From contig JAHPZH010000001.1 of the NCBI GenBank assembly GCA_019058315.1, positions 881,432 through 945,431 on the forward strand: 64,000 bases of DNA. The letters are read 5' to 3'. Below are positions 7,332 through 8,600 of the stretch, piece by piece; the stretch's first letter is position 1; each line of letters begins with the position of its first letter. The stretch comes from Candidatus Helarchaeota archaeon. Lineage in GTDB: Archaea > Asgardarchaeota > Lokiarchaeia > Helarchaeales > RDOG01. The position numbers were made by a program, and so were the translations under genes. Below the pieces are notes generated by a model. That model was not told the origin of the DNA, ran no database searches, and saw nothing but the letters and a program-made list of their open reading frames with translations.

Positions 7332-8015
7332 TTAAAGATTAATAAGTTCTTTTTTATTTGCTTGATTAATTGCTTCCTTCAATCTGTGTTGCCAAGCGTG
7401 AATTCTATCCACTTCATCAAAAACTTTGCGTTCTTCCATTCCGTAATCAGTTACTTCTTGGATATTGTAGTAGTCGATATATTCTTCTTCAATCTTATGT
7501 CCTTGTTCACTTAGAGATTGCTTCATTTTGTATACTGGCATCACTGTTTGCCATTTTATGAATTTATCAGTAGTCTCTGTTATTTCAACACCTGTTGCTA
7601 ATTTTGGAATCGCTTGTGCAGCTTGTTCGAGCTTTGGTGCGATATCATTCTTCAAAACCAAGAGTTCCGGAACAGTTAATTCTTTTTCAGTACCATCTAA
7701 ATCTATAATTTTCGCTTTGGCTACTTGATTAGTTAAAGAAATTCTCAAAGCTAATTTTTTATCTTCATCTATTAATTCTTGTATTTTTTTTCTACATTCC
7801 TCGATTGTATAATTTCGGTCATAATCTTTTTTAGTTCCTGGGATTGGCTTGAATTTATCGTCTCCTTCGATCTTTTTTGTTTGATAACTGATAGTATCAC
7901 GACCTGCGAGTTTTAAACGATTAATCCAAGTTTGAATTTCTGCTTCTATTTGTTTACGTCTAGAAAACGCATCTCCTAAAGTTAAAGCGATTTTAAACAC
8001 CTCTAATACATTCAT
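7332..8015 (-). CDS. DIP1984/DUF6847 (septicolysin-like) helical protein with a beta-rich insertion
   Basis: Family-like pattern LTLGDAFSRRKQIEAEI...LALRISLTNQ...LTVPELLVLK...RLKEAINQAN...L. The start may be ATC at 7991 behind GAGGTG. Family assignment is from memory. Confidence 0.55.
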   Translation of the reverse strand: MNVLEVFKIALTLGDAFSRRKQIEAEIQTWINRLKLAGRDTISYQTKKIEGDDKFKPIPGTKKDYDRNYTIEECRKKIQELIDEDKKLALRISLTNQVAKAKIIDLDGTEKELTVPELLVLKNDIAPKLEQAAQAIPKLATGVEITETTDKFIKWQTVMPVYKMKQSLSEQGHKIEEEYIDYYNIQEVTDYGMEERKVFDEVDRIHAWQHRLKEAINQANKKELINL

Positions 8016-8035
8016 AATTAATTTATATTAAATAT

Positions 8036-8241
8036 TGGTGCCGGGGCTAGGGCGTCAAGGCTTGAAAGAGCCTTAATTAGATCTTGCTTACATAATTTAA
8101 TTTATATTATTTCTTAAAAATACTTAAATATAAAAATATCGCATACACCCATAAGCGCGGCGGACGCTTAGATAGACCGTCTAAGTTCTGTGCATTATTC
8201 GGATTACTGGTATACAACCTTCAATTCGATCCTGCCCCAGC
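8036..8241 (-). ncRNA. putative ~206-nt structured ncRNA, copy 1 (tRNA-like terminal stem, 3' ACCA)
   Basis: 5'-GCUGGGGC-AGG pairs with CCU-A-GCCCCGGC-ACCA-3'; internal hairpins; homologous to 8366-8563; TATA box at -22..-29. Confidence 0.8.
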
Positions 8242-8262
8242 TATAAAGTGAATTTCCCGTAC

Positions 8263-8277
8263 TATTTAAATCTTTGG
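8263..8277 (-). promoter_or_regulatory. BRE/TATA promoter of ncRNA copy 1
   Basis: Minus strand CCAAAGA-TTTAAATA; TATA at 8263-8270, 22-29 nt upstream of the predicted 5' G at 8241. Confidence 0.65.
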
Positions 8278-8339
8278 AAATTTCTTCGTTGTATTATGTT
8301 CAAATTTTTTTTTCTTTAATCTATGATGATTAAATTATT

Positions 8340-8360
8340 AAAATAAAAAATGAATAAAAG
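8340..8360 (-). terminator. oligo-T terminator after ncRNA copy 2
   Basis: Minus strand CTTTTATTCATTTTTTATTTT starts a few nt after the ACCC end. Confidence 0.5.
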
Positions 8361-8365
8361 TAATA

Positions 8366-8563
8366 GGGTGCCAGGACGGAGGTAAGTCAAGGCCTGACGG
8401 AGCCTTAAATTCGGATACACTTATTAATCTATTTTAAATAAGTTTTGAGACGTAAGGTTTACATCTTACAACCGTTGGAATGACGGATTCCAAGATAGAC
8501 CATCTTACAATTACCAAGTAAGGATATGAGTTCTACAACCATCAATTCGATCCTCGTCCTGGC
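8366..8563 (-). ncRNA. putative ~198-nt structured ncRNA, copy 2 (tRNA-like terminal stem, 3' ACCC)
   Basis: 5'-GCCAGGACG-AGG pairs with CCU-C-CGUCCUGGC-ACCC-3'; shares conserved blocks and hairpins with copy 1; TATA box at -23..-30. Confidence 0.8.
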
Positions 8564-8585
8564 GTTATAAATAAGGTTTGTATTT

Positions 8586-8600
8586 TATTTAAAATTTTCC
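8586..8600 (-). promoter_or_regulatory. BRE/TATA promoter of ncRNA copy 2
   Basis: Minus strand GGAAAAT-TTTAAATA; TATA at 8586-8593, nearly the same offset as in copy 1. Confidence 0.65.

What the first reader, a model, noticed from the sequence alone, without database searches (positions are those of the whole stretch)
7332..8600. Candidate new ribonucleoprotein system: DIP1984/DUF6847-like protein encoded directly behind the two RNAs
Seen: the order is promoter-RNA2-terminator, promoter-RNA1, protein gene, all on the minus strand. RNA1's ACCA end is 20 nt from the ORF's ATG with no oligo-T tract between them, so co-transcription and tRNA-like processing are plausible. The 227-aa protein has the two-long-helix pattern I associate with the poorly characterised DIP1984/septicolysin-like family, plus a beta-rich insertion (VEITETT...YYNIQEVTDY). 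Inference: the protein may be an oligomeric scaffold for these RNAs, analogous to Ro60-Y RNA, acting in RNA repair, stress response or defence. No Ro60/TROVE, RtcB or SmpB gene is in the window.
Basis: inference. Interest (0 to 1): 0.88.

Follow-up and report, generated by a model that had tools for sequence, protein, structure and literature searches.

The report
Asgard leader RNA with partner protein
A previously undescribed, pseudoknotted RNA of about 200 nt sits directly in front of one small conserved protein gene in every Asgard archaeon examined that has that gene, so the two very probably work together, but whether the protein binds the RNA is untested.

Summary
On the minus strand lie promoter-RNA2-T-rich terminator, promoter-RNA1, a 20-nt spacer and a 227-aa ORF. 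The two RNAs belong to a real structured family. It has a closing stem, three hairpins and a long-range pseudoknot, all supported by covariation, and it matches nothing in Rfam 15.

The link to the protein is strong within Asgard archaea. All 17 Asgard loci with enough upstream sequence carry the RNA 15-50 nt before the gene. Among 151 Asgard genomes, the same 7 have both RNA and protein, and the other 144 showed neither. One RNA-first metagenome hit is also followed by the gene. Terminator-ended extra copies with their own promoters occur here and in a Hodarchaeota locus.

The protein is a DUF7873-type protein. It is distantly DIP1984/DUF6847-like, predicted to form a homodimer, and mildly acidic. 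Its bacterial orthologs (38 loci, about 50% identical) form a separate clade and show no RNA.

My reading is a new RNA-protein gene module. The RNA is most likely the protein's partner and feedback leader (0.4). A riboswitch-like sensor is the main rival (0.3). The Ro60/Y-RNA analogy and tRNA-like processing are not supported. Binding is untested. The scan noted these RNAs only on this same stretch.

The parts
8585..8594 (-). TATA-like box of RNA2 (TTTTAAATAA), about 30 nt before the RNA's first base
   Evidence: Sequence reading. A TATA-like box at about -30 is seen before every RNA copy.
8367..8563 (-). RNA2, a stand-alone copy of the RNA family. P1 8552-8563 with 8370-8382. Pseudoknot strand 8539-8545 with the P5 loop 8394-8400. 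P2 loop 8496-8502. P3 8477-8491. P5 8389-8406.
   Evidence: Covariance model R1 scores 124.9 bits over its full length. Fold z = -3.68. Coordinates.
8340..8362 (-). T-rich tract after RNA2 (TTTT, TTTTTT, TTTT), a likely archaeal terminator
   Evidence: The same layout follows the upstream copy in L085.
8263..8272 (-). TATA-like box of RNA1 (ATTTAAATA), about 30 nt before the RNA's first base
8036..8241 (-). RNA1, the gene-proximal copy. P1 8231-8241 with 8040-8052. GAUCGAA 8225-8231. Pseudoknot strand 8218-8224 with the P5 loop 8062-8068. P2 8180-8185 with 8167-8172, loop CGGUCUA 8173-8179. P3 8155-8167. P5 8057-8074. ACCA tail 8036-8039.
   Evidence: R1 scores 144.1 bits. Covariation. Coordinates.
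8016..8035 (-). 20-nt spacer between RNA1 and the ATG, with no T-run and no TATA box at a usable distance
7332..8015 (-). Gene of a 227-aa DUF7873-type protein (distantly DIP1984/DUF6847-like, predicted homodimer). A possible alternative start is ATC at 7989-7991, behind the Shine-Dalgarno sequence GAGGTG at 7998-8003.

Best explanation
This is an Asgard-specific RNA-protein gene module.

Transcription starts at the first base of a 190-240-nt RNA, about 30 nt after a TATA box. The RNA folds into a closed, pseudoknotted domain. P1 joins its 5' and 3' ends. P2 is a hairpin with a conserved GUCURYC loop. P3 is a hairpin with a GUCA-type loop. P5 is a 3' hairpin whose loop pairs with the purine-rich strand just after the conserved GAUCRAA.

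In the gene-proximal copy the transcript runs on without a terminator into a Shine-Dalgarno sequence 5-50 nt behind P1, and then into the gene of a DUF7873-type protein that is predicted to be a homodimer. RNA and protein are therefore made from one transcript.

Inferred, not shown: the protein dimer binds this RNA. Binding at the foot of P1 would feed back on the protein's own translation. Where extra promoter-plus-terminator copies exist (RNA2 here), free RNA would be made in excess, as a partner or a sponge. The bacterial orthologs work without the RNA, so I read it as an added partner or regulator, not as part of the protein's core activity.
For: (1) The RNA family is real. 16 of 24 proposed pairs change on both sides, 83.5% of cells are paired against 22-40% when partners are slid, and 0/500 shuffles reach the observed values. 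A pseudoknot of 4-7 bp is present in all 15 RNAs, with a cognate score of 13.07 against 9.09 for non-cognate pairs and 0/5000 permutations as high.
(2) Linkage. The RNA lies directly upstream, on the same strand, in all Asgard loci with enough sequence: L013-18, L020-22, L055, L060, L082-85 from Heimdall-, Odin-, Sigyn- and Hod-labelled assemblies, L114 and the window.
(3) Phyletic pattern. Of 151 Asgard genomes, 7 have the RNA and the same 7 have the protein. The own genome has only these two RNA copies.
(4) Every copy has a TATA-like box at about -30. In the spacer before the start codon, T-runs of four or more are absent from every gene-proximal copy but L085b (one TTTT), while several follow each orphan copy.
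(5) Orphan copies with their own promoter and terminator occur in the window and in L085. A divergent copy lies on another contig in G138. RNA1 and RNA2 are only 57% identical yet both keep P1, the pseudoknot and the conserved loops. This argues for selection on an RNA that has no gene in cis.
(6) Homodimer prediction: ipSAE 0.58 against a best control of 0.00. That mark was reached by 20 of 30 proteins solved as pairs of one chain and by 1 of 23 solved as single chains. The runs agree in at least 98% of contacts and partner pLDDT is at least 86.
Against: No binding data exist. The protein is mildly acidic (median pI 5.8, net charge -3), has no known RNA-binding domain, and shows no Asgard-specific gain of basic residues. 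The bacterial orthologs are about 50% identical, with 54 columns at least 95% conserved across both clades. They have no detectable RNA in 38 loci or in 5 whole genomes, and no conserved flank. The conserved surface therefore cannot be devoted to this RNA alone. The model was built from AT-rich sequences, so its sensitivity in 65-77% GC genomes is low. A compact pseudoknotted fold with many conserved unpaired bases fits a ligand sensor equally well.
Confidence: 0.4

Rival explanations
1. The RNA is a riboswitch-like cis sensor. The pseudoknotted domain would bind a small molecule or ion, or sense a physical cue. It would set translation of the downstream gene by switching the pyrimidine-rich P5 loop between the internal purine-rich strand (the pseudoknot) and the Shine-Dalgarno sequence. 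The protein would not touch the RNA.
For: The RNA is always in the 5' UTR, with the Shine-Dalgarno sequence 5-50 nt behind P1. It has a compact fold with a covarying pseudoknot and many conserved unpaired bases, such as GAUCRAA, two GUA motifs, GUCURYC and GUCA. The P5 loop can pair 4-7 bp with the Shine-Dalgarno region in many loci, for example UGAAG/CUUCA, UUGAGG/CUUCAA and GAGGUGU/GUAUCUU. The bacterial orthologs do without the RNA, as expected if it is only a lineage-specific regulator.
Against: The loop to Shine-Dalgarno complementarity is no better in cognate than in non-cognate pairs (10.62 vs 10.28; 801/3000 permutations as high). The RNA is tied to a single gene family and never to other genes. 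Old orphan copies with their own promoter and a constitutive-looking T-rich terminator are kept intact.
Confidence: 0.3
2. The RNA is an independent non-coding RNA whose function has nothing to do with the protein. The two would merely share a promoter and travel together as one inherited or transferred block.
For: Orphan copies show that the RNA can be expressed alone. The protein works without it in bacteria.
Against: Co-occurrence is perfect, 7 and 7 of 151 genomes. The arrangement is invariant across Loki-, Heimdall-, Hod-, Sigyn- and Odin-labelled lineages whose proteins have diverged to about 55-60% identity, while all other neighbouring genes differ. Hitch-hiking would not survive that long.
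Confidence: 0.1
3. One reading: a Ro60/Y-RNA-like quality-control or RNA-repair particle, with the RNA released from the mRNA by tRNA-type processing at an ACCA end.
For: A closing stem joins the 5' and 3' ends, and an ACC tail follows P1 in 10 of 15 homologs. The RNA gene sits next to the protein gene, as in bacterial rsr-yrlA loci (my own knowledge).
Against: There is no TROVE domain in the genome. RtcB is unlinked. ARAGORN finds no tRNA or tmRNA in the window. The RNAs have no Rfam match at E up to 10, in this window's 6000-11000 stretch or in eight homologous loci. The tail is absent in L020, L022, L055, L084 and L085, and P5 is separated from P1 by 5-9 nt, so there is no acceptor/T-arm stack. 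The RtcB 'fusion' P0100 looks like a chimeric 1.6-kb contig.
Confidence: 0.05
4. A type III toxin-antitoxin-like or defence module, in which an upstream RNA neutralises the protein made from the same transcript.
For: The order promoter-RNA-(terminator)-protein resembles such modules, and the distribution is patchy, 7 of 151 genomes.
Against: The bacterial orthologs stand alone, with no RNA and no conserved neighbouring gene. There is no significant PADLOC hit (one homolog gave a weak SAVED match, E 0.0012) and no phage or plasmid homolog. The RNA is one complex domain, not short tandem repeats. Within Asgard the protein tree is roughly lineage-congruent.
Confidence: 0.03

Closest known systems
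Autoregulatory protein-binding mRNA leaders (ribosomal-protein leaders, the archaeal L7Ae K-turn leader)
   Same: A structured 5' UTR is tied to one gene family. The Shine-Dalgarno sequence lies at the foot of the structure. Feedback by the gene's own product is the mechanism proposed here.
   Different: This RNA is far larger (190-240 nt) and pseudoknotted. It also exists as separately promoted, terminator-ended copies. The protein has no known RNA-binding fold and its bacterial orthologs lack the leader. I could not find a clean K-turn by eye in the alignment.
Ro60 (Rsr) with Y RNA / YrlA
   Same: A non-coding RNA of a few hundred nt is encoded next to its partner protein, and a closing stem joins its 5' and 3' ends.
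   Different: There is no TROVE domain in the genome and no Y-RNA or other Rfam match. The RNA here is the mRNA leader. No tRNA-like domain was detected.
Pseudoknotted translational riboswitches
   Same: The RNA lies in the 5' UTR and has a compact aptamer-like fold, conserved junction bases and a pyrimidine-rich loop that could mask the Shine-Dalgarno sequence.
   Different: It is linked to only one gene family, it has orphan copies with terminators, and no covarying expression platform was found. No ligand is known.
DUF7873 (PF25283) and DIP1984/DUF6847 (PF20935; PDB 3KDQ) protein families
   Same: The bacterial orthologs P0107 and P0111 hit DUF7873 (26.5 and 31.1 bits, cut-off 27). The nearest ESM Atlas cluster is 26% DUF7873. 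A DUF6847 model aligns with TM 0.73 normalised by its own length. 3KDQ aligns at Z 5.8, rmsd 2.0 A, over 67 residues.
   Different: The window protein itself is below both Pfam cut-offs. It is about 70 residues longer than DUF6847 proteins because of the beta-rich part. Neither family has a tested function.
Type III toxin-antitoxin loci (ToxIN)
   Same: An RNA gene lies upstream of the protein gene, a terminator can separate them, and the distribution is patchy.
   Different: The RNA is a single complex domain, not short repeats. The orthologs in bacteria have no RNA, and there is no hit to defence models.

Membership tests
Any Rfam 15 RNA family | Covariance-model match at or near the gathering score | tested here: not met
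   Nothing overlaps RNA1 or RNA2 at E up to 10 in window 6000-11000. Nothing overlaps the RNA in eight homologous loci.
tRNA / tmRNA-like RNA | Acceptor stem stacked on a T-arm, detectable by ARAGORN, with a conserved 3' ACCA | tested here: not met
   ARAGORN finds 0 genes in the window. The ACC tail is present in only 10 of 15 homologs, and P5 lies 5-9 nt from the 3' strand of P1.
Ro60-Y RNA module | A TROVE-domain protein encoded in the genome or locus | tested here: not met
   PF05731 gives 0 matches in the 94%-complete genome, while the control genomes Deinococcus and Bacteroides give matches.
DUF6847 / DIP1984 (PF20935) | Pfam score over the 27-bit cut-off | tested here: not met
   16.4 bits, E 0.009. 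A true DUF6847 paralog in the same genome scores 40.2 bits.
DUF6847 / DIP1984 (PF20935) | Shared fold with the solved member 3KDQ | tested here: inconclusive
   3KDQ_C aligns at Z 5.8, rmsd 2.0 A, over 67 residues, covering only the N-terminal helical hairpin. An Atlas DUF6847 model aligns with TM 0.47 by query and 0.73 by row over 127 residues.
DUF7873 (PF25283) | Pfam score over the 27-bit cut-off, or clear homology to members that pass it | tested here: inconclusive
   The window protein gets no PF25283 hit. It is 51% identical over 96% of its length to P0111, which scores 31.1 bits. The nearest Atlas cluster carries DUF7873 in 26% of its members.
Riboswitch | Ligand-dependent alternative pairing that involves the expression platform | tested here: inconclusive
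   P5-loop to Shine-Dalgarno pairing is possible but not cognate-specific. Ligand binding cannot be tested with these tools.
Ribonucleoprotein (RNA bound by the adjacent protein) | Physical RNA-protein binding | not testable with these tools
   There is only genetic linkage and a predicted protein homodimer.
Type III toxin-antitoxin | The protein never occurs without its antitoxin RNA, and the RNA consists of short tandem repeats | tested here: not met
   38 bacterial ortholog loci lack the RNA. The RNA is one 190-240-nt domain.

The most novel reading that the evidence does not exclude
This is a previously unknown Asgard-archaeal ribonucleoprotein. A pseudoknotted RNA of about 200 nt, made both as the leader of the protein's own mRNA and from separate genes, would assemble with a DIP1984-like homodimer into a stable particle that acts in trans. 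The bacterial orthologs would have lost the RNA component, or never gained it.
Probability: 0.3. Interest if true: 0.8.

Novelty: new variant of a known kind. Interest (0 to 1): 0.64.

Why it matters
Asgard archaea are the closest known prokaryotic relatives of eukaryotes, and almost nothing is known about their regulatory or structural RNAs. This is a covariation-supported, pseudoknotted RNA family that is absent from Rfam, and three full-text searches found no paper on it. It is locked to a protein family that has no tested function. That protein family also occurs in Nocardiopsis and Streptosporangiaceae, in Myxococcota, in Planctomycetota and in Armatimonadota. Whether the RNA turns out to be a partner RNA, an autoregulatory leader or a riboswitch, it gives a concrete handle on RNA-based control in Asgard archaea and on the function of DUF7873-type proteins. 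The pair is small enough to test in vitro.

Tried and rejected
- Rfam at permissive E-values, on the window and on eight homologous loci, found nothing on the RNA. ARAGORN found nothing.
- BLAST of RNA1 against the own genome found only itself and a piece of RNA2.
- The RtcB link is rejected. P0100 joins an RtcB N-terminus (profile positions 1-83) to residues 67-227 of this protein on one 1.6-kb metagenome contig. The join falls in a short similar stretch, so I judge it an assembly chimera.
- tblastn against phages and plasmids gave no match. PADLOC and PHROGs gave nothing meaningful. A PDB sequence search gave only a chance coiled-coil hit.
- Foldseek against PDB and BFVD gave nothing at E up to 0.001. 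VIA-wide gave only generic helical hairpins at Z up to 8.7.
- Clustering of neighbouring genes over 53 loci found no conserved neighbour gene.
- Model R1 found no RNA in 38 bacterial loci or in 5 bacterial genomes, though its sensitivity in GC-rich DNA is low. There are no cross-phylum conserved flanks.
Of 80 loci only one (L114) was a true RNA, so the scan adds one data point, not a census.
- Cognate-specific pairing of the P5 loop with the Shine-Dalgarno region was not significant.
- Expression. In one sediment metatranscriptome, Logan contigs of 184 nt (8051-8234, 5 differences) and 181 nt (8371-8551, 19 differences) lie wholly inside RNA1 and RNA2, while DNA-run contigs bridge the borders. 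This is one study, the data are contigs rather than reads, and DNA carry-over is not excluded. It is a weak hint only and does not show transcripts or their ends.
- Literature: no paper was found on DUF6847, DUF7873, DIP1984 function or on Asgard structured RNAs of this kind.

Full report
**What is there.** The window is low-GC (about 31%) archaeal DNA. By its relatives it is an Asgard genome of the Promethearchaeota/Lokiarchaeia kind. On the minus strand the order is:
- a TATA-like box at 8585-8594;
- RNA2 at 8563-8367;
- a T-rich tract at 8362-8340;
- a TATA-like box at 8272-8263;
- RNA1 at 8241-8036;
- a 20-nt spacer;
- an ORF at 8015-7332 encoding 227 aa.

**The RNAs are a real structured family.** RNA1 and RNA2 fold better than dinucleotide shuffles (z = -2.15 and -3.68). 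Homologs taken from upstream of the protein's homologs in other Asgard assemblies gave a 13-sequence alignment (A3). On it, a structure of closing stem P1, hairpins P2 and P3, and 3' hairpin P5 has these properties:
- 83.5% of cells are paired, against 22-40% when the partners are slid by 1-3 columns.
- 16 of 24 pairs change on both sides.
- 0 of 500 shuffles reach the observed values.

A scan for further covarying helices, followed by a cognate versus non-cognate test, found a long-range pseudoknot. The purine-rich strand just after the conserved GAUCRAA pairs with the loop of P5. The pairing is 4-7 bp in all 15 RNAs, for example GAGUGGG/CCCGCUU, AGUAAGA/UCUUACU, UGUGGAU/AUCCACA and UGAGGAU/AUCUUCA. 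The mean score is 13.07 against 9.09 for mismatched partners, and 0 of 5000 permutations are as high. Conserved unpaired elements are GAUCRAA, two GUA motifs, the P2 loop GUCURYC and a GUCA-type P3 loop. The family matches nothing in Rfam 15, either in the window or in eight homologous loci. ARAGORN finds no tRNA or tmRNA.

**Link to the protein.** The protein has more than 250 homologs. A scan of one genome per species returned 53 loci.
- Every Asgard locus with enough upstream sequence has the RNA on the same strand, ending 15-50 nt before the start codon: L013-18, L020-22, L055 and L060.
- Four further lineages fetched by exact protein look-up also have it. These are L082 (Heimdall-labelled), L083 (Odin-labelled), L084 (Sigyn-labelled) and L085 (Hod-labelled).
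- In a sample of 151 Asgard genomes, the RNA model hits 7 genomes and the protein profile hits the same 7. In six of them the two are adjacent. In the seventh (G138) the gene is cut by a contig end, and a divergent RNA copy lies on another contig.
- The own genome holds only RNA1 and RNA2.
- An RNA-first pattern scan of metagenome contigs was mostly noise. Its single true hit (L114, 154 bits) is again followed by the gene.
- Other neighbouring genes are not conserved.

**Transcription layout.** Each RNA copy has a TATA-like box about 30 nt before the first base of P1. Apart from one TTTT just after L085b, gene-proximal copies have no run of four or more T before the Shine-Dalgarno sequence and start codon. 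The two orphan copies, RNA2 here and the upstream copy in L085, are each followed by several T-runs. So the gene is very probably translated from a transcript that begins with the RNA, and the orphan copies are separate short transcription units. RNA1 and RNA2 are only 57% identical, no closer to each other than to orthologs elsewhere. Both still keep P1, the pseudoknot and the conserved loops, with compensating changes. That points to long-standing selection on an RNA that has no gene in cis. A sediment metatranscriptome holds short contigs that lie wholly inside RNA1 and RNA2. This is a weak hint only.

**The protein.**
- Pfam gives only a sub-threshold DUF6847 hit. The bacterial orthologs reach DUF7873.
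- An AF2 model from 23 sequences is confident (pLDDT 88.6). It shows four long helices and a beta-rich part that includes a long hairpin at 153-190.
- The nearest predicted structures are a DUF7873-bearing cluster and a DUF6847/DIP1984 cluster, the latter with TM 0.73 by its own length.
- The solved DIP1984-like protein 3KDQ aligns over the N-terminal helical hairpin at Z 5.8, rmsd 2.0 A, 67 residues. No other solved fold stands out.
- A symmetric homodimer is predicted, with ipSAE 0.58 against a best control of 0.00. That mark was reached by 20 of 30 proteins solved as pairs of one chain and by 1 of 23 solved as single chains. The runs agree in at least 98% of contacts and pLDDT is at least 86.
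- The protein is mildly acidic in both clades.

**Bacterial orthologs.** Thirty-eight loci from Actinomycetota (Nocardiopsis, Streptosporangiaceae), Myxococcota, Planctomycetota and Armatimonadota encode proteins about 50% identical to the window's. In a maximum-likelihood tree they form one clade (100/100), opposite a single Asgard clade (100/100). None has the RNA in its locus, five whole genomes have none, and their flanks share nothing across phyla. Their upstream regions look like -10 boxes placed for leaderless mRNAs (my reading). The RNA is therefore specific to the Asgard branch of the family, and the protein's core activity does not need it.

**Interpretation.** Three things are shown: a new structured RNA family, its strict genetic coupling to a DUF7873-type gene across deep Asgard lineages, and co-transcription by layout. 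The mechanism is inferred.
- I favour the view that the RNA is the protein's binding partner (0.4). It would give feedback on translation from the leader copy, and free RNA from the orphan copies. The reasons are that the RNA is tied to this one gene family and that orphan copies are maintained.
- The main rival is a riboswitch-like sensor (0.3). It is favoured by the compact pseudoknotted fold, the anti-Shine-Dalgarno-like P5 loop and the RNA-free bacterial orthologs. I found no covarying expression platform.
- An unrelated hitch-hiking RNA (0.1), the Ro60/Y-RNA or tRNA-like processing model (0.05) and a toxin-antitoxin or defence module (0.03) fit the data poorly.

**Novelty.** Full-text searches found no paper on this RNA or on the protein families' function. 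Earlier notes of this scan concern only this same stretch. I rate it a new variant of a known kind, namely a structured RNA encoded with its cognate protein gene. It is of real interest to RNA and Asgard biologists, but its function is open.

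Noticed in passing
window 7989-8015 (-): The homologs start eight codons after the annotated ATG (M-x-L-T-L-G-D). Here that position is ATC (7989-7991), 6 nt behind a good Shine-Dalgarno sequence GAGGTG (7998-8003), while the ATG at 8015 has none. L014 has ATA at the equivalent position and no ATG, GTG or TTG near it. Residues 1-8 are disordered in the model (pLDDT below 50). This may be near-cognate initiation.
   Followed up: partly
window about 8746-8814 (+): A 23-aa remnant of the C-terminus of a short-chain dehydrogenase (LCSNAASFVTGHNLVVDGGFIAS). 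An intact SDR gene lies divergently upstream of the RNA in L016 and L017, and as two ORF pieces in L060. Most of the SDR gene seems to have been lost here, next to the extra RNA2 unit.
   Followed up: partly
L012:1345-1845 (-) = G000 contig C5, about 698.6-699.1 kb: The same genome encodes a true DUF6847 protein of 166 aa (E 4e-10), related in sequence to PDB 3KDQ (E 7e-5). I saw no structured RNA upstream of it on reading, and the model hits no other place in this genome.
   Followed up: partly
L085:1873-2478 (+): A Hodarchaeota-labelled locus repeats the window's layout. It has two RNA copies, each behind the same GATAAAGTATAAAAAA promoter box. The first is followed by T-runs and the second by the gene.
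   Followed up: yes
L023, L024, L027, L034, L039, L041-L044, L062, L065, about 60 nt before the gene: Actinobacterial orthologs share an upstream motif (AAAACCNGTGGCG or CGTGGCGAC) about 25-30 nt before a TAnnnT box that sits 6-8 nt from the GTG or ATG. This suggests a leaderless mRNA with a conserved operator or -35 element.
   Followed up: no
window 6309-7229 (-) and L082:3143-4033 (-): A Hydrolase_4 alpha/beta-hydrolase gene lies just downstream of the protein gene, both here and in a Heimdall-labelled locus. The orientations differ. This may be residual synteny or chance.
   Followed up: no
L081:87-884 (+): A 265-aa 'RtcB N-terminus plus DUF7873 C-terminus' product on a 1.6-kb metagenome contig. 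The junction falls in a short similar stretch (TFDEVRKKINELI), so it is probably an assembly chimera.
   Followed up: yes
window 8918-9070 (-): A 50-aa ribbon-helix-helix (CopG) gene lies about 350 nt upstream of RNA2. It is not conserved next to the module in other loci.
   Followed up: partly
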